Part shown: positions 1 to 13,697 of the stretch, piece after piece
Layout: every line of letters begins with the position of its first letter
Position numbering within the stretch: the stretch's first letter is position 1
IMG/VR virus record: IMGVR_UViG_2675903324_000015
Location: 1 to 37,665 of that record
Origin: a virus
Taxonomy: Duplodnaviria; Heunggongvirae; Uroviricota; Caudoviricetes
Reading direction: 5' to 3' (one strand)
Length of the DNA stretch: 37,665 nucleotides
Notes under the pieces: generated by a model
Databases searched by the model: none
Seen by the model: only the letters and a program-made list of their open reading frames with translations
Told to the model about the DNA's origin: nothing
Translations under genes and position numbers: made by a program

Positions 1-1053
1 TTACGGGGTAATGCCAACCGCTGCCGCCACTTTGTCGCCACTTGGCAGCGTTGCCAGAGGATTGAAACGGAGCGCCGTTTCCAGATGATCCGGTGCCAGA
101 TGTGCGTAACGCATCGTCATTTTTATATCGTGGTGTCCGAGAATTTTTTGTAAGGCCAGAATGTTTCCACCCGACATCATGAAGTGCGCCGCAAACGTAT
201 GGCGCAGAACGTGTGTGAGTTGACCGCGAGGGAGCACGATAGACGTTTTTTCCATCACGGATAAAAATTGAAAATAGCAGTCTGTGAAGAAATTGAACCC
301 ATCAAGCGCCATGATCTCTTCGTAAAGCTCTTTACTGATAGGGATGCTTCTGTTTTTCTTCCCTTTCGTTCTGACAAAGGTAATTCGGTATTTAGTCACC
401 TGTGAACGGGTAAGATTTATTGCTTCTCGCCAGCGTGCGCCTGTGCTTAAGCAGATCTTGACTACCAGTGCCAGAATTGGGTCCTGACGTTTGCAATCAG
501 CCAGCAATTCAACAATCTGTTCATGGGTAAGCCATGCCATCTCTTTTTCTGCGATGGTGAATTTTCGCATGTTCTCCAGTGGGTTCGGATACGACCATTC
601 GCCCAGGCGGGATAGTTCGCTAAAAACACTACTTAGATAGCTTTGCTCCAGGTTAACGGTGACCGGGCTTGCTCCTTTCTTCCATTTTTCGCTGAAGTAG
701 ATCTCTCCTGTCAGGCGTTTATCTCTATAGTGGGCAAACATTTTAGAGGTGAGATCGGTTGCAATGGGATTTCCCAGAGCGTCAACCATCAACAGCAATT
801 TGTCATAGACATGCTGCCCAGCCGTCAGAGATTTACCATGTAGTTTGAACCATAGCTCAACCACGTCTTTCAGTGTTCGACGATCCACTGATTCACCCAG
901 CCAGGGTTTTGCTTCGGTTTCTTCCATCGTGTGACGCTCAAAAGCCAGTGCTTCGCCTTTGGTGGCGAATTGTTTACGCACACGACGCCCACTACGTCCG
1001 GCGGGGTAACATTCGCAAAGCCATTTTCCTGTGGTGAGTTTTCGTACTGCCAT
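1..1053 (-). CDS. int: Tyrosine integrase (P2/186-type), 350 aa
   Basis: Full ORF with stop at 1-3; C-terminal region with R...HxxR...Y-type catalytic residues (LRHTFAAH, MRYAHL); position beside the att core and the CI repressor. Confidence 0.9.
   Translation of the reverse strand: MAVRKLTTGKWLCECYPAGRSGRRVRKQFATKGEALAFERHTMEETEAKPWLGESVDRRTLKDVVELWFKLHGKSLTAGQHVYDKLLLMVDALGNPIATDLTSKMFAHYRDKRLTGEIYFSEKWKKGASPVTVNLEQSYLSSVFSELSRLGEWSYPNPLENMRKFTIAEKEMAWLTHEQIVELLADCKRQDPILALVVKICLSTGARWREAINLTRSQVTKYRITFVRTKGKKNRSIPISKELYEEIMALDGFNFFTDCYFQFLSVMEKTSIVLPRGQLTHVLRHTFAAHFMMSGGNILALQKILGHHDIKMTMRYAHLAPDHLETALRFNPLATLPSGDKVAAAVGITP
20..40. repeat. attL core: 21-bp direct repeat GCTGCCGCCACTTTGTCGCCA, inside the 3' end of int
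   Basis: 20/21 identical to 34812-34832 in the same orientation; flanks differ on both sides; the copies bracket all phage-like genes. Confidence 0.6.
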
Positions 1054-1131: not shown

Positions 1132-1503
1132 TCATAAGTACCGATATGATTGCGGGGCCGTTATGTTATCACCTAATGAACTTAGATGAAGCGGTTGATC
1201 ATAGATTTTTAAATTGCCAATTTCTATAGCAAAGGCTTTTTCTTTGCTATGAAAATATGAGTCAAAAAATTGTTTGCTGATACCTGCGTATTGGCTTGTT
1301 TTTTCCCATACAATACTTGGCTTGTCTTCTATAACGTCTGCAATGTCAAATTCAGCAACAACTTTACCGACAGGCATTGTTGAATAAATAACCACAGATT
1401 TTACATCCGGGTTTTTGAAAAGACCTTTCCTGAATTCAAACTTCTTTGTCCCATTAAGGATCTTTTCAACAAATTCAGGTTTTATTGACAATAATACTTT
1501 CAT
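1132..1503 (-). CDS. Small ASCH/PUA-like fold protein (123 aa), function unknown
   Basis: AT-rich ORF; N-terminal pattern (LSIKPEFVEKILNGTKKFEFRK) resembles ASCH-domain proteins such as YqfB; 29-nt overlap with the upstream gene suggests an operon. Confidence 0.45.
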   Translation of the reverse strand: MKVLLSIKPEFVEKILNGTKKFEFRKGLFKNPDVKSVVIYSTMPVGKVVAEFDIADVIEDKPSIVWEKTSQYAGISKQFFDSYFHSKEKAFAIEIGNLKIYDQPLHLSSLGDNITAPQSYRYL

Positions 1504-2554
1504 CTACAGCACCAAGTTTAATTATATCGTCAAATTGCTTATCGGTTAATTTAACAACACCCCAACGGTTTTTAGGATTCAAACCAATTTCTTTAATTAG
1601 TTTAGCACGATTTATTCTTTTAGGTAAAGCTAGATTATATGTAAAACTAATAATGTAAGGGTATCTTCTTGTTTGATAAAATTTTTTCAATTCATTTTCA
1701 GAAAATACACTGTATCGTGCACAATATTGTATGAATTCATTTTCATTATGAAAAGAATCAATATATCTAATATCTTCAACTACACATAATGACGTTGCGA
1801 CAGAACGATAGTATGCTCTGTTCTCTTCGTCACTTGTTCTGTAAATAACTAAGATGTCATGTTTTTTTATTTTTTTTACATCATACATTCTACATATATA
1901 TATTTTTCTAATGCTATTAGCATGAGATACATCCGTGATTATATCTGGAGATTCAGTGACGAGTTTTGAATCAGGAAAAAGTTTTGTATGAAATTCAGGG
2001 TGTATTGACAATAGGTATTTATTCTCATTATTTTTATTATTTATATATGGGTAATCAGAAAGTATATCACCCGTGAGGTGATTTCTATTCATCTCTCTTA
2101 CTAAAACATTTTCTATACCATTTGCGGTTTTTTTTGTGCCATGAAGAATGAATCCATAAAGTTTGAATAGTTTTATTAGATATTCATGTTTTTCAAATAC
2201 AGTAACGTAAATATCATTAACTCTTTCTTTTAAAGCATGATCAAATATTTTTTTTAAAAAACGTTGCCCTCGTAATGTTTTTTTTGTATTGAACTTAAAG
2301 GTTCCAATTTTCAAATGTTTATGATTGATAATTGATGGGGTGACATCAGTTATTTTACCGAATTCAATTTTTAAATACATAAAACCATCAATGGTATTAT
2401 CGTCATTATAAAGCACATATGCTTTTTCTTCTGGATTAAGACTTTTTCTGTTGAACCATTCAATAAAACCGTGTTCATAGTCATTCTTTAACGAATCAAA
2501 AAATGTATCGTCAAAATTTACTTGACTGAATGGAATAAGTTTTAAATTTTCCAT
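1475..2554 (-). CDS. Hypothetical protein (359 aa) with N-terminal GNAT-like acetyltransferase fold and uncharacterised C-terminal domain
   Basis: Motif-A-like RGQRFLKKIFDHAL and motif-B-like HEYLIKLFKLYGFI; strongly AT-rich, Asn/Lys/Ile-rich composition unlike the phage core. Confidence 0.45.
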   Translation of the reverse strand: MENLKLIPFSQVNFDDTFFDSLKNDYEHGFIEWFNRKSLNPEEKAYVLYNDDNTIDGFMYLKIEFGKITDVTPSIINHKHLKIGTFKFNTKKTLRGQRFLKKIFDHALKERVNDIYVTVFEKHEYLIKLFKLYGFILHGTKKTANGIENVLVREMNRNHLTGDILSDYPYINNKNNENKYLLSIHPEFHTKLFPDSKLVTESPDIITDVSHANSIRKIYICRMYDVKKIKKHDILVIYRTSDEENRAYYRSVATSLCVVEDIRYIDSFHNENEFIQYCARYSVFSENELKKFYQTRRYPYIISFTYNLALPKRINRAKLIKEIGLNPKNRWGVVKLTDKQFDDIIKLGAVDESIIVNKT

Positions 2555-2581: not shown

Positions 2582-3646
2582 TTATTTTCTATAGGTCCAA
2601 AGGTGAATAATTATATATATTACAATAGCTAAAATTGCCCCACCGATATAATATGTGCTTGTCGGTATAAATTTAAGAATAAAAGCAAAGGCAGCACCAT
2701 ATATCAAGTACGCAAAAATTTTACTGAATTTGGTTTTCGTGTTTTTAAACTTCACAACAACAGAGAAGTCATTTAGTGTTGTTTCATTATCATTAACAAT
2801 CTTCCAATGGTAAATCATAGGGTCGTGATCACCAAATGAAATACCTTTTTCGAAATATTTTGTCCATGTTTCAGACTCTAATATTCTACATCCTTTATAA
2901 CTTGAGCCAGATGCTGAACATTCATCAACAATATCTCTTATTATAAACAAATGTGTTTTTAAAGGTGTGCAAGCGGCGCTCGCCAGAGTTGTAGCAATTT
3001 CTGAAGGTAGGTTTCTTTGTTCATTGATCCTAAAATCAATAATATCAGAACGCTCAATATTACTTTTGAGAAAGAGATCTTTTGGATAAAATGTTTTTAC
3101 TAAAACACCTATATCTTCATTGTTGAGTTTAACTCGAAATCTTAAATAATGTGGAGCATCCTCTGACGATAGGCAATCTTTTAGCTTGAAAACAATGAAG
3201 GTGCCATTATGTATTTTAGTTACCTTAACCCTACGATCAAGTTCGCCACCACTAAAGGTCAGATTTGTATTAACAACTAAATCACCTTTATTCGCAAGTT
3301 CTAATTTTGAATGTCTGACGTCTACTGTTTTTGTATTAATAAGATATTCATTAAAAACAGCTGTTACGAGATCTCGGCTTGACTCGAGATTTTTACTAAG
3401 ATCAGAAAAAAAACAATTTTCCTTCTCAAATGGTAAAAATATGCATATTGCACCATGATTTGCAATGGTGTCGTCATCAGGTTTTTTAAACGTAATACCA
3501 AAATCTAAATAACAAAATTTATGAGCACTTATATTCCAAAAATTTATGTGTAACTCATTAATAAAATTATTGCGTTCAGGGTTATAGGTCGAACTCGAAT
3601 TGCTCCTATAATCCCTACATCCCCAGATAGCAAAACTTTTTGACAT
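2582..3646 (-). CDS. Hypothetical membrane-anchored protein (354 aa): large N-terminal soluble domain plus two C-terminal transmembrane helices
   Basis: C-terminal hydrophobic segments IFAYLIYGAAFAFILKF and YYIGGAILAIVIYIIIHLW; AT-rich; first gene of the three-gene cassette between cI and int. Confidence 0.5.
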   Translation of the reverse strand: MSKSFAIWGCRDYRSNSSSTYNPERNNFINELHINFWNISAHKFCYLDFGITFKKPDDDTIANHGAICIFLPFEKENCFFSDLSKNLESSRDLVTAVFNEYLINTKTVDVRHSKLELANKGDLVVNTNLTFSGGELDRRVKVTKIHNGTFIVFKLKDCLSSEDAPHYLRFRVKLNNEDIGVLVKTFYPKDLFLKSNIERSDIIDFRINEQRNLPSEIATTLASAACTPLKTHLFIIRDIVDECSASGSSYKGCRILESETWTKYFEKGISFGDHDPMIYHWKIVNDNETTLNDFSVVVKFKNTKTKFSKIFAYLIYGAAFAFILKFIPTSTYYIGGAILAIVIYIIIHLWTYRK

Positions 3647-3674: not shown

Positions 3675-4328
3675 TTATACATCTGATAATACTTTTCGAT
3701 AGCATCTTGCGATGGGTTTTATATCGTCAAGCATACATTCAAAAAATGTTTGACCACTGCTAACTTTTACTCTCCCAACTGGAATTCTAACCAGATCACG
3801 AGAACTTATTTTTCCTTCTATTTCAACAATCCATTTCCCATCAATAATTTCATCAAATTTCATGTCTACCAGATAATTATCTGATAACTCAGAAAATATT
3901 GCGGGGGTAATCATATCCACCGGGAGCAAATCTTTATCAAAAATGTAAGAGGAATCACCTTGTAGCTTGCCATCTACTATTTTGTAATGTGGCAATTTTA
4001 TACCTTCTTTCGTTGCTTTAAGACGAGGAGAACCAACACCAGACACTAACCATTCGAGAGACACTCCCGTTTCTAGAGCGCACTGAATTACCCAATCAGC
4101 TGGAAAAATATCACGCATATAGCGCGTTGCCATGGTGCTCTTAGAAACACCTAAATGATCACAGAGAGCCTGACGGGTACCGAACCCATATGCTTCAACT
4201 AAACGTTCTATAGCTTTCTTACCGCCGCTATTGAAATCCACAAGTCCTCCAAAGAAATCCAAAACTCGTTGACAGATTCCAAAAGCGATCTTAAAGTTGA
4301 ACCAGAAGTGTTCTTTTGGAGCCTTCAC
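3675..4328 (-). CDS. cI: CI-like immunity repressor (186-type), 217 aa
   Basis: HTH-like segment TRQALCDHLGVSKSTMATRYMR; divergent from apl/cII; same strand as int. Confidence 0.7.
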   Translation of the reverse strand: MKAPKEHFWFNFKIAFGICQRVLDFFGGLVDFNSGGKKAIERLVEAYGFGTRQALCDHLGVSKSTMATRYMRDIFPADWVIQCALETGVSLEWLVSGVGSPRLKATKEGIKLPHYKIVDGKLQGDSSYIFDKDLLPVDMITPAIFSELSDNYLVDMKFDEIIDGKWIVEIEGKISSRDLVRIPVGRVKVSSGQTFFECMLDDIKPIARCYRKVLSDV

Positions 4329-6205: not shown

Positions 6206-7050
6206 GCACCATCCTGAAATGGGCGGGTAATAAAACCGCCATTATGCCAGAACTGAAAAAATACCTTCCTGCTGGCCCGCGACTGGTTGAACCTTTCGCG
6301 GGTTCTTGTGCTGTGATGATAGAGACGGATTACCCCAGCTATCTTGTTGCGGATATTAATCCTGATTTAATCAACTTCTATAAAAAGGTTGCTGCTGATT
6401 GCGAGGCGTTTATATCTCGTGCCAGAGCTTTATTTGAGGAAGCAAACAGGGAGGTGGCTTATTACAACATAAGGCAGGAGTTTAATTACTCCACTGAAAT
6501 TACTGATTTCATGAAAGCGGTATATTTCCTGTATCTCAATCGTCATGGTTACCGTGGGTTATGTCGCTATAACAAGAGCGGGCATTTCAACATTCCCTAC
6601 GGGAATTATAAAAATCCGTATTTCCCTGAAAAAGAAATTCGCAAATTTGCAGAAAAAGCCCAGCGAGCAACGTTTATCTGCGCCAGCTTTGATGAAACGC
6701 TGGCGATGTTGAAGGCGGGGGATGTGGTGTATTGCGATCCGCCTTATGACGGTACGTTTTCCGGCTATCACACTGATGGCTTCACTGAGGATGACCAGTA
6801 TCACCTGGCATCCGTTCTTGAACATCGATCATCTGAAGGTCATCCGGTCATTGTTTCTAACAGTGACACATCCCTGATTCGTTCGCTGTATCGCAATTTC
6901 ACTCACCACTACATCAAGGCAAAACGCAGCATTGGCGTGTCAGCTGGCGAGAGTAAATCTGCAACAGAAATCATTGCCACCAAATCAGCTGGGGGGTTTG
7001 GTGTCGATTTTGCCAGCGGCTCTGACCGTACCGTTGAGGTACGCGCATGA
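6202..7050 (+). CDS. DNA N6-adenine methyltransferase (Dam-like), 282 aa
   Basis: Motif I FAGSCAV and motif IV DPPY ([10 protein letters not shown]); GGAGG RBS before ATG at 6202. Confidence 0.85.
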
Positions 7051-8057
7051 ATGCTATCGATCCGCGTTGCTTTGCCTCAGGCACCATTAACGTCATCAAT
7101 ACTTCTGGTGGCAAAGATAGTCTCGCTCAATGGCTAAGAGCCATTGAAAACGATGTTCCGCATATTTCTGTATTTGCCGATACGGGTCATGAACATCCAC
7201 AGACAATAGAATATCTGGATTATCTGGAATCAAAGCTGGGCAAGATTATTCGCGTCAAAGCGGATTTCACACGCCAGATAGAAGGGAAACGTAAATTCAT
7301 TGCGGAAAAGTGGCCCATTTCTCTCGTTGAGGAATGTGGTATGTCGACAGATGAGGCTGAGGAACGTATTTACCGGGCACTGGAAATCCTTAAACCAACC
7401 GGCGTTCCGTTTCTTGATTTGTGCATGTGGAAAGGTCGCTTCCCTTCAACAAAAGCTCGTTTCTGCACTTTTGAACTGAAACATGAACCAATACGTACAC
7501 AGGTAATCGATCCAGCTCTGGATGAATACGATGAGGTAATCAGCTGGCAAGGAGTCCGGGGGCAGGAATCACCGGAACGTGCATTGTTGCCTGAGTGGGA
7601 GGACGATGCAGACAATACTCTGGGGCTGCATGTTTATCGTCCGATCCTTAATTGGCTGCATGAGGATGTGTTTGCTATTGCCAAACGTCATGGCATTAAG
7701 CCTAACCCCCTTTATATGCAGGGATGCAGTCGTGTCGGTTGTATGCCATGCATTCATGCTCGCAAGTCAGAACTTGGAGAGATTTTCCAACGCTGGCCAG
7801 AAGAAATCCGCCGAGTGGCTGAGTGGGAAAGACTGGTTGCGGAATGTTCAAGACGTGGCAATTCAACGTTCTTTCCATCCACGCATGATCCGCGCCGTGC
7901 TGAAAAACGGATCGAAGTCATAACTGTTGATGCTTATGGCATTGAAACTTATCGGGACTGGGCCTTAACGACTCGGGGCGGTATGCAGTTTGACCTGCTG
8001 GCAGGCATGAATGATAAAGCGGTGTGCAGCAGTGTATATGCAGGAGTCTGTGAGTGA
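7047..8057 (+). CDS. PAPS-reductase / ATP-pyrophosphatase-like protein (336 aa)
   Basis: N-terminal PP-loop motif SGGKDS; Cys-rich C-terminal region ([10 protein letters not shown]); start overlaps the Dam stop. Confidence 0.65.
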
Positions 8058-10495
8058 CAGAGATCAGCACAGGCCGTCTTGCCGCTCCATTTGTCAGTGT
8101 AACTTCCGGTAGCATTGAGAATTCTGCCGGGGGTTATTCGTGGAATTTACCTAAGAAAGCCATTAACCCTTATCTGGACCCGGCGGAAGTTGCGCCGGTT
8201 TCTGCGCTTTCAAACCTGATCACTCTGTACGCTACCGATAACGAGCAGGAACAACTGCGCCGCGAGGCACTGAGTGATCAGGTCTGGGAGCGTTATTTCT
8301 TTAATGAATCCCGTGATCCTGTCCAGCGCGAAATGGAGCAGGATAAGCTCATTAGCCGGGCAAAGTTGGCGCATGAGCAGCAGCGTTTTAACCCGGACAT
8401 GGTCATTCTGGCAGACGTCAGCGCCCAGCCCTCCCATATCAGCAAGCCGCTGATGCAACGTATTGAATACTTCAGCAGCCTGGGCAGGCCAAAGGCTTAT
8501 TCCCGCTATTTACGTGAGACGATTAAGCCATGTCTGGAACGACTGGAGCATGTACGCGACAGTCAGCTATCCACTTCTTTTCGCTTTATGGCAAGCCATG
8601 AAGGGCTGGACGGCCTGCTAATCCTGCCTGAAATGAGTCAGGATCAGGTGAAACGCCTGTCCACCCTGGTAGCTGCGCATATGAGCATGTGCCTTGATGC
8701 AGCTTGTGGCGATTTGTATGCCACCGATGATGTTAAGCCAGAAGAAATCCGCAAGACATGGGAAAAGGTGGCAGCAGAAACCCTGCGTCTGGATGTCATC
8801 CCGCCTGCGTTTGAGCAACTCCGTAGGAAAAGAAAGCGCCGTAAACCAGTGCCCTATGAACTCATTCCGGGTTCGCTGGCGCGTATGCTGTGCGCCGACT
8901 GGTGGTATCGGAAATTGTGGAAGATGCGTTGCGAATGGCGGGAAGAGCAGTTGCGTGCTGTCTGCCTGGTCAGCAAAAAAGCATCTCCCTATGTCAGCTA
9001 TGAAGCCGTGATGCATAAACGTGAGCAGCGCCGTAAGTCGCTGGAGTTTTTCCGTTCTCATGAACTGGTGAACGAAGACGGCGACACGCTGGATATGGAA
9101 GATGTGGTAAACGCCAGTAGTAGCAACCCGGCGCATCGCCGCAATGAGATGATGGCATGTGTTAAAGGTCTGGAGCTTATCGCGGAAATGCGCGGTGACT
9201 GCGCCGTTTTCTACACCATCACCTGTCCGTCACGTTTCCATTCCACGCTAAATAACGGCAGGCCCAACCCGACCTGGACAAATGCGACGGTAAGACAAAG
9301 CAGTGATTATCTGGTCGGCATGTTTGCTGCATTTCGTAAGGCGATGCACAAAGCCGGATTGCGCTGGTATGGCGTGCGGGTGGCTGAGCCGCATCATGAC
9401 GGTACAGTTCACTGGCACCTGTTGTGTTTTATGCGCAAAAAAGATCGCCGCGCCATTACTGCTTTGTTGCGTAAGTTTGCCATTCGTGAAGACCGCGAGG
9501 AGCTGGGTAATAACACAGGACCACGCTTTAAGTCTGAGTTGATTAACCCGCGCAAAGGTACGCCAACAAGCTACATCGCGAAATACATCAGTAAGAACAT
9601 TGACGGGCGTGGTCTGGCTGGCGAGATCAGCAAGGAAACGGGTAAATCCCTGCGTGATAACGCTGAATACGTTAATGCCTGGGCGTCTCTGCATCGTGTT
9701 CAGCAATTCCGCTTCTTTGGTATTCCAGGGCGTCAGGCTTACCGTGAACTGCGGTTGTTGGCTGGTCAGGCGGCAAGGCAGCAGGGTGACAAAAAAGCAG
9801 GTGCGCCGGTACTGGATAACCCGCGCCTTGATGCAATCCTGGCTGCTGCTGATGCTGGCTGTTTTGCCACCTACATTATGAGGCAGGGCGGCGTGCTGGT
9901 TCCTCGCAAATATCACTTGATCAGAACCGCTTATGAAATCAATGAAGAGCCGACCGCCTATGGCGATCACGGTATTCGTATTTATGGCATCTGGTCACCC
10001 ATTGCAGAGGGCAAGATCTGCACTCATGCAGTGAAGTGGAAAATGGTTCGTAAAGCCGTTGACGTTCAGGAGGCGGCAGCCGACCAGGGCGCTTGCGCCC
10101 CTTGGACTCGTGGCAATAACTGTCCCCTTGCTGAAAATTTGAACCAACAAGGGAAAGACAAATCAGCTGATGGGGATACTAGGACGGACATTACCCGCAT
10201 GGATGACAAGGAGTTGCACGATTACCTGCACAGTATGAGCAAAAAAGAGCGCCGGGAACTGGCTGCAAGGTTACGCCTGGTGAAACCGAAACGGCGTAAA
10301 GACTACAAACAGCGAATTACAGACCATCAGCGACAGCAGCTCGTCTATGAACTGAAGTCCAGAGGATTTAATGGCAGCGAGAAAGAGGTCGATTTACTCC
10401 TTCGCGGCGGCAGTATTCCGTCAGGAGCAGGCCTGCGTATCTTCTATCGGAACCAGCGTTTGCAGGAAGATGATAAGTGGCGAAACCTGTATTAA
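8054..10495 (+). CDS. A: Replication initiation protein A (rolling-circle nicking endonuclease, P2 gpA family), 813 aa
   Basis: HUH-type motif VHWHLLCF and nearby YIAKYISK tyrosine motif; size and position; GTG start. Confidence 0.85.
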
Positions 10496-10587
10496 TTACG
10501 CGGGTTAACAATTCGTGCTCTTAATAATACCAAGCATATCAGGCTAATGAACGTAAAAAAACGTTTTACATCAGTAAGATTATTATA

Positions 10588-10607
10588 TACTGTAAATATA
10601 AACAGTG
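10588..10607 (+). promoter_or_regulatory. LexA (SOS) box TACTGTAAATATAAACAGTG
   Basis: CTGT-N8-ACAG with AT-rich spacer, 17/20 to consensus TACTGTATATATATACAGTA; about 40 bp upstream of a rightward ORF. Confidence 0.7.
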
Positions 10608-10648
10608 GTTATGTATACAGTATTGCTTGTGGTGTCATAGGAGGAAAG

Positions 10649-10837
10649 ATGCAGGACTATTTTTTGGAGTCTTTGAAGCTCCAGCGCATTGATTTTTTTC
10701 TTAAGCTTGTAGCGGCTAGTGAGTGTAGTGATGAAGAGAAGGGGCTGGCTTTGCAGTGGGTTTCTGAACTGACAGATGAACTCATGGCAAAAATCAGAAC
10801 CCACGAATACAACCGCTCAATGGATGTCATCAGCTGA
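10649..10837 (+). CDS. Small SOS-controlled protein (62 aa), possible Tum-like antirepressor
   Basis: AGGAGGA RBS before ATG at 10649, directly downstream of the LexA box. Confidence 0.4.
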   Translation: MQDYFLESLKLQRIDFFLKLVAASECSDEEKGLALQWVSELTDELMAKIRTHEYNRSMDVIS

Positions 10838-10847
10838 GGTGACCTTT

Positions 10848-11081
10848 ATGCGCATTGAAATAATGATCGATAAAGAGCAGAAGATTAGCCAGTCTACCCT
10901 GGACGCCCTTGAATCCGAGCTTTACCGCAATCTGCGCCCCCTGTATCCCAAAACGGTAATTCGCATCCGCAAAGGTAGCTCTAACGGTGTGGAACTGACC
11001 GGACTGCAACTGGACGAAGAAAGAAAACAAGTGATGAAGATTATGCAGAAGGTGTGGGAAGACGACAGCTGGCTGCATTAA
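10848..11081 (+). CDS. DinI-family protein (77 aa)
   Basis: MRIEIMIDK start and C-terminal acidic WEDDSWL resemble E. coli DinI (MRIEVTIAK...ESADDWF). Confidence 0.65.
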   Translation: MRIEIMIDKEQKISQSTLDALESELYRNLRPLYPKTVIRIRKGSSNGVELTGLQLDEERKQVMKIMQKVWEDDSWLH

Positions 11082-11240
11082 GAAAAGTTGCTGGCGTCTG
11101 AACTTGGTTCTGGCGTCAGCAAGGTTGAACAACGAGTACAGTGAGGCGTTAGGTGTGGCGTTTATTTGATGAGTGAACGCCCGTTCTGCGACAGGTTCGG
11201 AGATTAAGGTTGAAACTACGGGCAAAATACCATCTTTTTC

Positions 11241-11666
11241 CTACTTAATTGAGTCCAGTAACAAGTTACAGTTACTCTCATTGTAGAGAGAACGAGCAAT
11301 TAGTGTTACCTGCTTTCCATTCATTCCCGGCTTATCCCATAACACAGCTTCTTGCGACGCCACAAATTCAGCATAATCAATTATGCGTTGTTCGTGATCT
11401 GGTTCCTCATAGCCAAAGTATGAGAGCGCATCGTTGTAAGCGTGGTAAGCTGCTTTCTGTAATATCTTGATATCGGCTGTAGGTACTTGCTCCGTGTAGC
11501 TAGGATCTAATTGTGTGCTACTGCCATAGAATGCACATGAAAGGTAAGATATTGATTTCTGTTGAGCTTTAGTTCCTTTCTCATAGTTTTTAGCTGTTAC
11601 CGCCTGAACTGGGACGCTAACAAAGCTTGCAACCAGAATTAAAATTAATACGTAAAAGCTTTTCAT
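11241..11666 (-). CDS. Hypothetical secreted protein (141 aa) with N-terminal signal peptide
   Basis: MKSFYVLILILVASFVSVPVQAVTA signal-peptide-like N-terminus; AT-rich; reverse strand. Confidence 0.55.
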   Translation of the reverse strand: MKSFYVLILILVASFVSVPVQAVTAKNYEKGTKAQQKSISYLSCAFYGSSTQLDPSYTEQVPTADIKILQKAAYHAYNDALSYFGYEEPDHEQRIIDYAEFVASQEAVLWDKPGMNGKQVTLIARSLYNESNCNLLLDSIK

Positions 11667-12157: not shown

Positions 12158-12733
12158 ATGCTTTTACCCGTAAGTGTTACATCGTGTGGCTTGTATCACC
12201 CCTACTGGCATTTGGGAGAGCGCAACCCTCATAGCGATGAACTATCAAGGCAGATGATGGATTTTAAGGATGAAAATAATCGTAATCATCAAAGGGCTAT
12301 TAACCGTTTTTCTCGATTAGCTATAGATAAGGTTGGGCGGTTAGTAATCAGAGGTGGCGGTGGGCGTTTTGTTGAGTCTCCTTTTTCGATAGCAGTCGTC
12401 CCGTCTCACACTGAAGGCAGAATTTCACCGGCTTTGATTGAGGTCGCCGAGCGAATCGTAAATGTTCACCGTCGGGGCATTGTTGATTGCTGTTTGGAAA
12501 GAACACGCACTGTTCCTAGCGCACATCGTGAAGGAGGCGATCGCTCAATTACTGGTCACATGTCTAGTATCAGAGTTAGGGGTGGTAACCTCATGGGGCG
12601 AAATGTGTTACTACTAGATGATGTTAAAACAACAGGCGGTAGTTTGTCTGCGTGTTTTTATTTACTGGAGTCTGCAGGAGCTGGAGTTATAATGCCATTA
12701 GCTCTGCTAGAAACTGCAAACTATGAGGAGTAG
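12158..12733 (+). CDS. Phosphoribosyltransferase (PRTase, ComF-like) domain protein; true start may be internal
   Basis: Canonical PRPP-binding motif VLLLDDVKTTGGSL near the C-terminus. Confidence 0.75.
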   Translation: MLLPVSVTSCGLYHPYWHLGERNPHSDELSRQMMDFKDENNRNHQRAINRFSRLAIDKVGRLVIRGGGGRFVESPFSIAVVPSHTEGRISPALIEVAERIVNVHRRGIVDCCLERTRTVPSAHREGGDRSITGHMSSIRVRGGNLMGRNVLLLDDVKTTGGSLSACFYLLESAGAGVIMPLALLETANYEE

Positions 12734-13697
12734 CAAAGTGCACTCAGAAGAATTAAAAAATACACTTGGATTAGCTATTCAAATCGGGAAGCTAGCATCT
12801 GATCAAAGTGTATTGAAATTCTTTGAGCTTATTGATTTTGATGTTATTCGTGATATACGCGACTTAACTGAGATGGTTAATAGCCACGGGTTTCTAAAAG
12901 ATAAAATATCTGAGACTGATTTTCTAATAGCGAACGCTGAATTGGAGAACCACCATGTTAATGGTGTGGAGCTAATACCATATGGGTCTGAATTCTATCC
13001 TCTTAGTTTAGCGTTTACTCCTAATCCACCATCAATTCTCTACATAAAAGGGGATAAAAGTATACTAAAAGAATTGCCGGGTGTCGCAATTGTAGGATCC
13101 CGTGATACTTCCCCTGCAGGGGAAGAAATAACGAGGCGAATCACTAATCAGATAGTGTCTGCTGGGTATATTGTTGTAAGTGGGTTAGCAATAGGCACTG
13201 ATGCGAATGCTCATAAGGCAACGTTACAAGCAAAAGGAAAAACCATTGCTGTCTTGGCGCATGGTCTTGAGGAGGCTAAGCCGAAGCAAAACAGTCGACT
13301 TGCTCAAGAGATTCTGGATAAAGGTGGTGCATGGATTTCTGAGTATCCTATGGGTCGACCGGCCCAGAAACAATCATTTGTACAAAGAAATCGGATACAA
13401 GTTGGATTATCTGCAGGTTCAATTTTAATCGAGGCTGCGTTAAATAGCGGAACGATAACTCAAGCTGAGTTTGCAAATAAGGCGAAAAGACCAGTGTTTG
13501 CGGTTGTACCTCACCTACCTAATAATCCGCTTAATCTTAATTGTGAGGGAACAGTTGATTTAGTTAAGAGCAACATGGCTAGAGCGTTAAAAACAAAACG
13601 GGATTATGATGATGTGATTATGATCATAAATGAGTCTCGGGAGTATTTGTTAGAGCTAAAATGGCCAGGGAAACAGAGTACATTAGACTTGATTTAA
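12723..13697 (+). CDS. DprA/Smf-like (SLOG Rossmann-fold) protein, 324 aa; alternative GTG start at 12738
   Basis: DprA-type signature GVAIVGSRDTSP...GLAIGTDANAH...KTIAVLAHGLE...ISEYPMG...QRNRIQVGLS...PVFAV; overlaps the PRTase gene. Confidence 0.75.
   Translation: MRSSKVHSEELKNTLGLAIQIGKLASDQSVLKFFELIDFDVIRDIRDLTEMVNSHGFLKDKISETDFLIANAELENHHVNGVELIPYGSEFYPLSLAFTPNPPSILYIKGDKSILKELPGVAIVGSRDTSPAGEEITRRITNQIVSAGYIVVSGLAIGTDANAHKATLQAKGKTIAVLAHGLEEAKPKQNSRLAQEILDKGGAWISEYPMGRPAQKQSFVQRNRIQVGLSAGSILIEAALNSGTITQAEFANKAKRPVFAVVPHLPNNPLNLNCEGTVDLVKSNMARALKTKRDYDDVIMIINESREYLLELKWPGKQSTLDLI

What the first reader, a model, noticed from the sequence alone, without database searches (positions are those of the whole stretch)
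10588..11081. LexA box controlling a small ORF plus a DinI-like gene (SOS-inducible module)
A near-consensus SOS box (CTGT-N8-ACAG) sits just upstream of a 62-aa ORF followed by a DinI-family gene. In 186 the LexA-controlled tum operon induces the prophage, so the 62-aa protein may be a compact antirepressor, and DinI homologues modulate RecA.
Basis: partly seen in the sequence, partly recalled or inferred. Interest (0 to 1): 0.45.

Follow-up and report, generated by a model that had tools for sequence, protein, structure and literature searches.

The report
SOS-controlled Tum antirepressor plus DinI gene
This is the known DNA-damage switch of 186/Fels-2-type prophages: a LexA-repressed promoter drives a 62-residue antirepressor (TumA) and a DinI-like gene (TumB), an ordinary module found in about a fifth of complete E. 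coli genomes.

Summary
10588-10607 is a LexA box: 3 mismatches to the 20-nt consensus, and 0 of 100 shuffles give a match. It overlaps the -10 of a conserved p95-type promoter. A 62-aa ORF follows (true coordinates 10649-10837), then a DinI-family gene (10848-11081). The module lies just downstream of replication gene A, in a prophage with a 186-type CI/Apl/CII switch.

- The 62-aa protein is 61/62 identical to ECHS_RS04495. That is the 'tum' gene whose in-frame deletion abolishes mitomycin-C induction of the E. coli HS prophage DuoHS. The published deletion primers match the window at the ORF's ATG and TGA.
- It is 98% identical to Fels-2 STM2728.
- A profile of its family matches residues 5-43 of the 186 Tum antirepressor (33.5 bits, E=7e-9).
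- The DinI gene corresponds to PSP3 tumB and to the C-terminal half of 186 Tum.
- The 'split tum' arrangement is described in the literature.
- The module occurs in 1126 of 5426 complete E. coli genomes.

Three extras came out of the work.
- The operator is a colicin-type double SOS box (10588-10622).
- dinI is absent from about half of related loci.
- Near-identical TumA travels with divergent CI repressors in which only the N-terminal domain is conserved.

The parts
10565..10570 (+). -35 hexamer TTTACA of the p95-type SOS promoter
   Evidence: It matches TTGACA at 5 of 6 positions and lies 17 nt upstream of TACTGT. TT(T/C)ACA occurs at this position in 39 of 47 related loci, and the spacing is 17 nt in 40 of 47, while the spacer sequence varies. 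The geometry matches the annotated 186 p95 promoter (TTCACA, 18 nt, TACTGT). The generic sigma-70 scan did not call it, because its -10 matches TATAAT at only 3 of 6 positions.
10588..10593 (+). -10 hexamer TACTGT, which is the left half of LexA box 1
   Evidence: TACTGT occurs in 44 of 47 related loci. It is identical to the annotated -10 of 186 p95.
10588..10607 (+). LexA (SOS) box 1, TACTGTAAATATAAACAGTG
   Evidence: Searches show it is unique in the window, with 0 of 100 shuffles matching. It is conserved across Peduoviridae genera and about 20 host genera. It sits at the same position as the annotated LexA site of 186 p95.
10603..10622 (+). LexA box 2 (imperfect, GTG-N10-CAG): CAGTGGTTATGTATACAGTA. 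Its core overlaps the core of box 1 by 1 bp.
   Evidence: It is conserved (6 or fewer mismatches) in about 26 of 40 genome loci and in Fels-2, DuoHS, ST437phi4.1 and MLG42, although the flanks diverge. The 35-nt double box is 31/35 identical to the operator 9 nt upstream of the colicin R gene on pColR. [quoted passage not shown]
10640..10645 (+). Ribosome-binding site GGAGGA for tumA
   Evidence: Read directly from the sequence. It is conserved in relatives.
10649..10837 (+). tumA: 62-aa antirepressor, homologous to the N-terminal half of 186 Tum
   Evidence: Family profile against 186 Tum residues 5-43: 33.5 bits, E=7e-9. It is 61/62 identical to the DuoHS tum gene ECHS_RS04495, and the published delta-tum primers match 10629-10651 and 10835-10857. 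It is 98.4% identical to Fels-2 STM2728. dN/dS is 0.03-0.25. AlphaFold2 predicts a helical hairpin with mean pLDDT 90.
10836..10841 (+). Ribosome-binding site GAGGTG for the dinI-like gene, overlapping the tumA stop codon
   Evidence: Read directly from the sequence. A 10-nt gap separates the tumA TGA from the dinI ATG, so translational coupling is possible. This is inference.
10848..11081 (+). tumB: 77-aa DinI-family protein
   Evidence: Pfam DinI E=6.6e-23. It is 41% identical to 186 Tum residues 71-145. It matches E. coli DinI, PDB 1GHH, at E=2.7e-6. It is 77/77 identical to ECHS_RS04500. Its Fels-2 counterpart STM2726.1, at the same position, is annotated as similar to PSP3 TumB.
3675..4241 (-). 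cI: 186-type immunity repressor, the presumed target of TumA
   Evidence: Pfam Phage_CI_repr and Phage_CI_C, with no peptidase S24 domain. GTG start at 4241, preceded by GGAGGA. It is 51% identical to DuoHS CI, with the N-terminal domain much more conserved.
8054..10495 (+). Replication gene A (context: the tum module follows it, as in 186, PSP3 and Fels-2)
   Evidence: Pfam Phage_GPA E=1.3e-127. Gene order is the same in 186, Fels-2, PSP3 and DuoHS.

Best explanation
This is the SOS induction operon of a 186/Fels-2-type (Peduoviridae) prophage, in its 'split tum' form.

In the lysogen, host LexA binds a double SOS box that overlaps the -10 and the start region of a p95-type promoter, and keeps it silent. 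DNA damage activates RecA, LexA cleaves itself, and the promoter fires. Two small proteins are then made.

- TumA (62 aa, a helical hairpin) is the antirepressor. It binds the 186-type CI repressor, which cannot cleave itself, and titrates it off its operators. The early lytic promoter opens and the prophage is induced.
- TumB (77 aa, DinI family) is an accessory. It most likely binds RecA filaments and tunes the strength or duration of the SOS signal.

Shown here: the anatomy; the homology to Tum and DinI; near-identity to an experimentally tested orthologue; and conservation of the promoter and operator.

Taken from the literature on orthologues: LexA dependence, the requirement of tum for induction, and CI sequestration.

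Inferred: that TumA acts on this particular CI, that two LexA dimers bind the operator, and the role of TumB.
For: Anatomy and conservation
- Sequence and ORFs.
- The LexA box is conserved in 47 of the 49 related sequences examined.
- The -35 / 17 nt / -10 geometry is conserved although the spacers vary.

Phage context
- Replication gene A lies upstream.
- CI, CII and Fil are of the 186 type.

Homology
- The ORF62 family HMM matches 186 Tum residues 5-43 at 33.5 bits, E=7e-9; the best of 4000 shuffles scores 8.1 bits.
- The DinI ORF is 41% identical to the C-terminal half of Tum and matches Pfam DinI.

Experimental support from orthologues
- ECHS_RS04495 is 61/62 identical to ORF62, and the adjacent DinI gene is 77/77 identical.
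- PMC12055606 deleted exactly that ORF, fusing its ATG to its TGA. The primers match the window.
- That deletion, and lexA(Ind-), both abolish MMC-induced lysis.
- PSP3 tumA is annotated 'UV induction of prophage'.
- PMC3121763 describes split tum in Fels-2 and PSP3, with the upstream half as the antirepressor.
- PMC7708051 describes 186 Tum as a LexA-controlled agent that sequesters CI.

Selection and operator
- Purifying selection on ORF62: dN/dS 0.03-0.25.
- The double operator is 31/35 identical to a colicin R operator.
Against: - No experiment was done on this element.
- The CI here is only 51% identical to DuoHS CI and 31% identical to 186 CI (tblastn). That TumA acts on this CI is therefore inferred, from its N-terminal domain being conserved among the CIs of phages that share this TumA.
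- Pairwise BLASTP of ORF62 against 186 Tum or PSP3 TumA finds nothing. PSP3 TumA is not significantly matched by the family profile (3.9 bits). The link to PSP3 TumA therefore rests on synteny and the annotation.
- The generic scans call neither a consensus sigma-70 promoter nor an intrinsic terminator.
- The function of TumB is unproven. Non-polar dinI deletions in Gifsy prophages had no measurable effect (PMC3121763).
Confidence: 0.9

Rival explanations
1. The module is intact, but it does not control this prophage's own repressor. On this view TumA was carried in by recombination and does not recognise the resident CI. It would then be neutral, or act only in trans on other co-resident P2-like prophages.
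For: TumA that is at least 98% identical occurs with CI proteins only 31-58% identical to one another. The DuoHS CI is 51% identical to the CI here. P2-like genomes are mosaic: homology of the module to its relatives ends near 11152.
Against: The CI N-terminal DNA-binding domain stays 60-85% identical among these phages, while the C-terminal domain drops to 23-55%. A TumA contact on the N-terminal domain would therefore be preserved. TumA is under strong purifying selection in every context examined. No other induction route is visible, because CI has no S24 domain.
Confidence: 0.06
2. The DinI-like protein is the main effector, acting through RecA, and the 62-aa ORF is an unrelated small protein.
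For: The DinI domain is the only part with a Pfam family. Public annotations call the small ORF 'hypothetical'.
Against: In DuoHS, deleting only the small ORF and leaving dinI intact abolishes induction. dinI is missing downstream of tumA in ESSI-2, ESSI2_ev015, YenM_06.16-2 and 19 of 40 genome loci, while the LexA box and tumA persist. The small ORF is homologous to the N-terminal half of Tum.
Confidence: 0.02
3. The two ORFs are translated into one Tum-like fusion protein by programmed frameshifting or readthrough. That would recreate the 146-aa 186 Tum.
For: In 186 the two domains are fused. In PSP3 they lie in the same frame, separated by TAG and one further codon. In the window the DinI frame is open back to 10776 and overlaps the end of tumA.
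Against: In the window, dinI is in the +1 frame relative to tumA. The gap between the stop and the ATG is 10, 11 or 12 nt in close relatives, so no relative frame is conserved. dinI has its own ribosome-binding site and ATG. Solo tumA genes are common. The exhaustive profile search found almost only 50-75-aa standalone proteins.
Confidence: 0.02

Closest known systems
Tum of the E. coli HS prophage DuoHS (ECHS_RS04495) with its DinI-like neighbour ECHS_RS04500
   Same: TumA is 61/62 identical and DinI 77/77 identical. The promoter and double operator are nearly identical, and the position after gene A is the same. Delta-tum and lexA(Ind-) block MMC induction (PMC12055606).
   Different: CI is only 51% identical, and the cargo genes downstream differ.
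Fels-2 STM2728 / STM2726.1 and PSP3 tumA / tumB ('split tum')
   Same: Both have the two-cistron arrangement behind a LexA box after gene A. Fels-2 STM2728 is 98.4% identical to ORF62. PSP3 tumA is annotated 'UV induction of prophage' and tumB as dinI-like. The arrangement is described in PMC3121763.
   Different: PSP3 TumA is highly diverged: the family profile does not match it significantly (3.9 bits). PSP3 has a single LexA box, and its tumA and tumB lie in the same frame, separated by TAG and one further codon.
Coliphage 186 Tum (146 aa) and the p95 SOS operon
   Same: It has a LexA-repressed promoter whose -10 is TACTGT, inside the box. Its N-terminal domain is homologous to ORF62 and its C-terminal DinI domain is 41% identical to the window's DinI gene. 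Its target is a 186-type CI.
   Different: In 186 the two domains are fused in one polypeptide with internal starts. It has a single LexA box, and orf97 follows. Here there are two cistrons and a double box, and the genes that follow are cargo on the opposite strand and defence genes.
Gifsy-1/2/3 LexA-controlled antirepressors (GfoA, GftA, GfhA) with a dinI homologue
   Same: The logic is the same: a LexA box drives an operon that holds a small antirepressor and a dinI homologue, and the repressor is not cleaved (PMC3121763).
   Different: The gene order is reversed (dinI first). The phages are lambdoid and their repressors are unrelated. Sequence homology of the antirepressors was not tested here.
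Colicin operators (double overlapping SOS boxes), for example colicin R on pColR
   Same: The 35-nt double box is 31/35 identical, with the cores overlapping by 1 bp.
   Different: In the colicin case the operator controls a toxin gene on a plasmid rather than an antirepressor. Binding of two LexA dimers at the tum operator has not been shown.
E. coli DinI (PDB 1GHH, 7YWA)
   Same: Same family and length. The C-terminal W-E-(D/S)-x-D-x-W motif is retained.
   Different: The match is weak (30.8 bits, E=2.7e-6). The gene is phage-borne and co-transcribed with an antirepressor.

Membership tests
Tum / TumA antirepressors of 186-like phages | Sequence homology to the N-terminal (non-DinI) half of 186 Tum | tested here: met
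   An HMM of 45 ORF62-family members matches Tum residues 5-43 in register at 33.5 bits, E=7e-9. The best of 4000 shuffles scores 8.1 bits. Pairwise BLASTP alone finds nothing.
Tum / TumA antirepressors of 186-like phages | The gene lies immediately behind a LexA-repressed p95-type promoter, downstream of replication gene A | tested here: met
Tum / TumA antirepressors of 186-like phages | The cognate repressor is a 186-type CI that cannot self-cleave | tested here: met
   CI at 3675-4241(-) carries Phage_CI_repr and Phage_CI_C and has no Peptidase_S24 hit.
Tum / TumA antirepressors of 186-like phages | The protein is required for SOS induction, binds CI and blocks its binding to operators | not testable with these tools
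   The requirement for induction is shown for the 98%-identical DuoHS orthologue (PMC12055606). CI sequestration is shown for 186 Tum (cited in PMC7708051 and PMC3121763). Neither was measured for this element.
DinI family (Pfam PF06183) | A match to the family profile above the curated cutoff | tested here: met
   81.3 bits against a cutoff of 24.2, covering profile positions 1-63 of 63. It also matches PDB 1GHH at E=2.7e-6.
DinI family (Pfam PF06183) | Binds RecA filaments and modulates RecA co-protease activity | not testable with these tools
   Homology only.
LexA (SOS) operator | A CTG-N10-CAG palindrome close to the 20-nt consensus that overlaps the promoter and is conserved | tested here: met
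LexA (SOS) operator | LexA binds the site and the promoter is derepressed on DNA damage | not testable with these tools
   lexA(Ind-) blocks induction of DuoHS, whose operator is nearly identical.
Colicin-type double SOS box | Two 16-nt cores overlapping by one base pair, with sequence similarity to colicin operators | tested here: met
   10588-10622 is 31/35 identical to the pColR cra operator. The second box is conserved in about 26 of 40 loci.
Lambda-type induction (RecA-stimulated self-cleavage of the repressor) | The repressor carries an S24 peptidase / LexA-like C-terminal domain | tested here: not met
   CI has Phage_CI_C instead.

The most novel reading that the evidence does not exclude
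TumA may be a broad-specificity antirepressor that recognises the conserved N-terminal DNA-binding domain of many otherwise divergent 186-type CI repressors. A single SOS-induced TumA could then cross-induce co-resident P2-like prophages whose CI proteins differ; whether those prophages are heteroimmune was not tested. Its colicin-type double LexA operator would make it a late, high-threshold SOS gene that fires only in heavily damaged cells.
Probability: 0.35. Interest if true: 0.35.

Novelty: already known. Interest (0 to 1): 0.15.

Why it matters
There is little new biology here. The module explains how this prophage, and P2/186-like prophages in about 21% of complete E. coli genomes, respond to DNA damage although their repressor cannot cleave itself.

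The practical value is in annotation. PGAP and most phage records call the 62-aa gene 'hypothetical protein'. One source names a homologue 'levan regulatory protein', and one phage record names the gene itself 'levan regulatory domain protein'. It should be named Tum/TumA antirepressor.

Two side observations could be followed up cheaply: the colicin-type double operator, and near-identical TumA paired with divergent CI repressors whose N-terminal domain alone is conserved. They bear on induction thresholds and on crosstalk between prophages.

Tried and rejected
- Pairwise BLASTP of ORF62 against 186 Tum and PSP3 TumA, and of PSP3 TumA against 186 Tum, gave no alignment. A profile was needed.
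- Pfam has no family for ORF62.
- A profile search of PDB sequences found nothing.
- Foldseek of the AlphaFold2 model against the PDB gave only generic helical hairpins, best E=0.7.
- The generic promoter and terminator scan found nothing in 10400-11300. The promoter was assigned by homology to 186 p95 and by conservation instead.
- No canonical terminator follows dinI. Folding shows only imperfect hairpins near 11088-11122 and near 11143-11162.
- Rfam gave no meaningful hit in the region.
The closer alignment A1 worked.
- Bunny et al. 2002 and Gillor et al. 2008 are not held in the library. Their content is cited only through papers that quote them.
- A literature search for STM2728, tumA and EcHS_A0919 returned only irrelevant papers.
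- The longer 96-aa reading of the ORF (ATG at 10547) was rejected. That start lies upstream of the promoter and operator, and conserved homologues and RefSeq use the 62-aa form.
- A frameshift or readthrough fusion was rejected because the spacer length varies among relatives.

Full report
**What is there.** The window is a P2/186-like (Peduoviridae) prophage. The left part reads as follows.
- int, 1-1053(-).
- A 186-type immunity repressor CI, 3675-4241(-). It has Pfam Phage_CI_repr and Phage_CI_C and no S24 peptidase domain.
- An apl-like gene, then CII (Phage_CP76) and Fil.
- DUF5347, DUF2732, a TraR/DksA zinc-finger gene, a Dam methylase and a further ORF (7047-8057, not scanned).
- Replication gene A, 8054-10495 (Phage_GPA, E=1.3e-127).

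The finding lies in the 150-nt gap after gene A and the two small genes that follow.

**Check of the observation.**
- The LexA box TACTGTAAATATAAACAGTG is at 10588-10607.
- The 16-nt core pattern alone would occur by chance in about a third of shuffled windows.
- The 20-mer within three mismatches of the consensus is unique, and none of 100 shuffles produced a match.
- The 62-aa ORF is real. It runs 10649-10837 and is preceded by GGAGGA.
- The DinI-like ORF runs 10848-11081 (77 aa; Pfam DinI at 81.3 bits against a cutoff of 24.2).

**Is the small ORF a gene?** Yes.
- A search of 5.8 billion proteins gave 484 homologues, mostly 62 aa long, across Enterobacterales.
- An exhaustive profile search of 1.84 billion cluster representatives gave 88 clusters, almost all standalone proteins of 50-75 aa.
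- Against 38 genomic loci from about 20 genera, dN/dS is 0.03-0.25.
- AlphaFold2 predicts a confident two-helix hairpin (H2-23, H28-61; mean pLDDT 90). It has no informative structural neighbour.

**What it is.**
- Phage 186 carries, at the same position after gene A, the p95 promoter with a LexA site and the 146-aa tum gene.
- The window's DinI ORF is 41% identical to Tum residues 71-145.
- Pairwise BLASTP does not connect ORF62 to Tum. An HMM built from 45 diverse ORF62-family members does: it matches Tum residues 5-43 in register at 33.5 bits, E=7e-9, while 4000 shuffled controls reach at most 8.1 bits.
- ORF62 is therefore the free-standing equivalent of the N-terminal half of Tum, and the DinI ORF corresponds to its C-terminal half.

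**This arrangement is documented.**
- PSP3 annotates tumA ('similar to 5' end 186 tum; UV induction of prophage') and tumB ('similar to dinI and 3' end of 186 tum').
- Fels-2 has STM2728, 98.4% identical to ORF62, followed by a DinI-family gene annotated as similar to PSP3 TumB.
- Lemire et al. [quoted passage not shown]

**Experimental support from a near-identical orthologue.** The E. coli HS prophage DuoHS carries ECHS_RS04495 (62 aa, 61/62 identical to ORF62) followed by ECHS_RS04500 (DinI-like, 77/77 identical). They sit behind an almost identical promoter and operator. In PMC12055606 'tum' is defined as ECHS_RS04495. The deletion primers fuse its ATG to its TGA, and they match window 10629-10651 with no mismatch and 10835-10857 with one mismatch. 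The deletion therefore removes exactly this ORF and leaves dinI intact. Both delta-tum and lexA(Ind-) abolish mitomycin-C-induced lysis. For 186, Tum is described as a LexA-controlled factor that sequesters CI reversibly (PMC7708051).

**Promoter and operator.** Forty-seven related sequences carry a box: the window, 8 phage loci and 38 genome loci.
- The left half of the LexA box, TACTGT, is the -10 in 44 of the 47.
- A TT(T/C)ACA hexamer sits upstream in 39 of the 47.
- The spacing between the two is 17 nt in 40 of the 47, and the spacer sequence varies.
- This is the geometry annotated for 186 p95.
- The generic scan misses the promoter because TACTGT matches TATAAT at only 3 of 6 positions.

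CAGTGGTTATGTATACAGTA at 10603-10622 is an imperfect second site whose core overlaps the first by one base pair. It is conserved in the Escherichia, Citrobacter, Enterobacter and Klebsiella group (about 26 of 40 loci). It is absent in the Pantoea/Erwinia group and in 186 and PSP3, which have a single box closer to the start codon. The 35-nt double box is 31/35 identical to the operator just upstream of the colicin R gene on pColR, and the 45-nt stretch 10583-10627 that contains it matched 343 plasmid records. [quoted passage not shown] By inference, tum in this lineage is a tightly repressed, high-threshold SOS gene.

**Role of the DinI gene.** It is an accessory.
- ESSI-2, ESSI2_ev015 and the Yersinia phage YenM_06.16-2 carry a LexA box and a tumA-like ORF but no dinI.
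- Only 21 of 40 genome loci have a DinI ORF within 400 nt downstream.
- The gap between the tumA stop and the dinI ATG is 10, 11 or 12 nt in close relatives, and 3 nt in frame in PSP3. No fused product is therefore conserved.
- The window protein retains the DinI fold signature and the acidic C-terminal motif.
- Its most likely role is modulation of RecA filaments during SOS. This is not shown, and dinI deletions in Gifsy prophages had no measurable effect.

**Repressor pairing.** Phages with TumA at least 98% identical carry CI proteins only 31-58% identical overall. The divergence is concentrated in the C-terminal domain (mean 33%, range 23-55%). The N-terminal helix-turn-helix domain stays at a mean of 74% (range 60-85%). 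The 186 CI N-terminal domain, which pairs with the diverged Tum N-terminal domain, is 39-45% identical to these. This is consistent with TumA contacting the CI N-terminal domain, and it predicts cross-reactivity among prophages whose CI proteins are divergent. It is inference only.

**Prevalence.** The 771-nt region matches 1126 of 5426 complete E. coli genomes, mostly at 95-99% identity. PGAP annotates the small gene as 'hypothetical protein'. It also occurs in 67 phage records from Klebsiella, Salmonella, Escherichia and Yersinia.

**Verdict.** The module is an ordinary, already described system: the Tum/TumA-TumB SOS operon of 186/Fels-2/PSP3-type prophages. Interest is low. The only mildly new points are the colicin-type double operator and the pairing of a near-invariant TumA with divergent CI repressors.

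Noticed in passing
window 10603-10622 (with 10588-10607): The tum operator is a colicin-type double SOS box, with cores overlapping by 1 bp. It is 31/35 identical to the colicin R operator on pColR. It is conserved in the Escherichia/Citrobacter/Enterobacter/Klebsiella lineage of these prophages and absent in the Pantoea/Erwinia lineage, 186 and PSP3.
   Followed up: partly
window 3675-4241(-), compared with L052-L057 and L058: TumA that is at least 98% identical is paired with CI repressors only 31-58% identical overall. The CI N-terminal domain stays at about 74% identity and the C-terminal domain falls to about 33%. This suggests TumA recognises the N-terminal domain and could cross-induce prophages whose CI proteins differ.
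   Followed up: partly
window 12158-13697(+): A ShosTA-like defence / toxin-antitoxin pair sits in the variable hotspot to the right of the tum module: ShosT, a PRTase-like protein at 12158-12733 (PADLOC E=3.6e-14), and ShosA, a DprA-like protein at 12723-13697 (E=2.8e-70).
   Followed up: partly
window 1132-2554(-): The candidate defence system PDC-M11 lies between int and cI: PDC-M11A at 1475-2554 (E=1e-133) and PDC-M11B at 1132-1503 (E=2e-49). Next to it is a 354-aa ORF at 2582-3646(-) with a hydrophobic C-terminus and no PADLOC hit (not scanned against Pfam).
   Followed up: no
window 11241-11666(-): A 141-aa ORF with an N-terminal signal-peptide-like segment has no Pfam or PADLOC family. 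It sits where homology of the tum module to most relatives ends (about 11152).
   Followed up: no
L005 (ESSI-2), L006 (YenM_06.16-2), L007 (ESSI2_ev015), and 19 of L010-L049: These loci carry solo tumA-like genes behind a LexA box with no dinI downstream. TumA with its LexA box is therefore the conserved core, and DinI is an optional add-on. The fused 186 Tum looks like the exception.
   Followed up: partly
L004 5135-5554 (PSP3): PSP3 tumA and tumB lie in the same reading frame, separated only by TAG and one further codon. PSP3 TumA is so diverged that the TumA family profile does not detect it (3.9 bits).
   Followed up: no
public annotations of ORF62 homologues: A UniRef name for one ORF62 homologue calls it 'Levan regulatory protein', and one Klebsiella phage record (ST11-OXA245phi3.1) calls the gene 'levan regulatory domain protein'. 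Most other records say 'hypothetical protein'. These look like misannotations of Tum/TumA.
   Followed up: no
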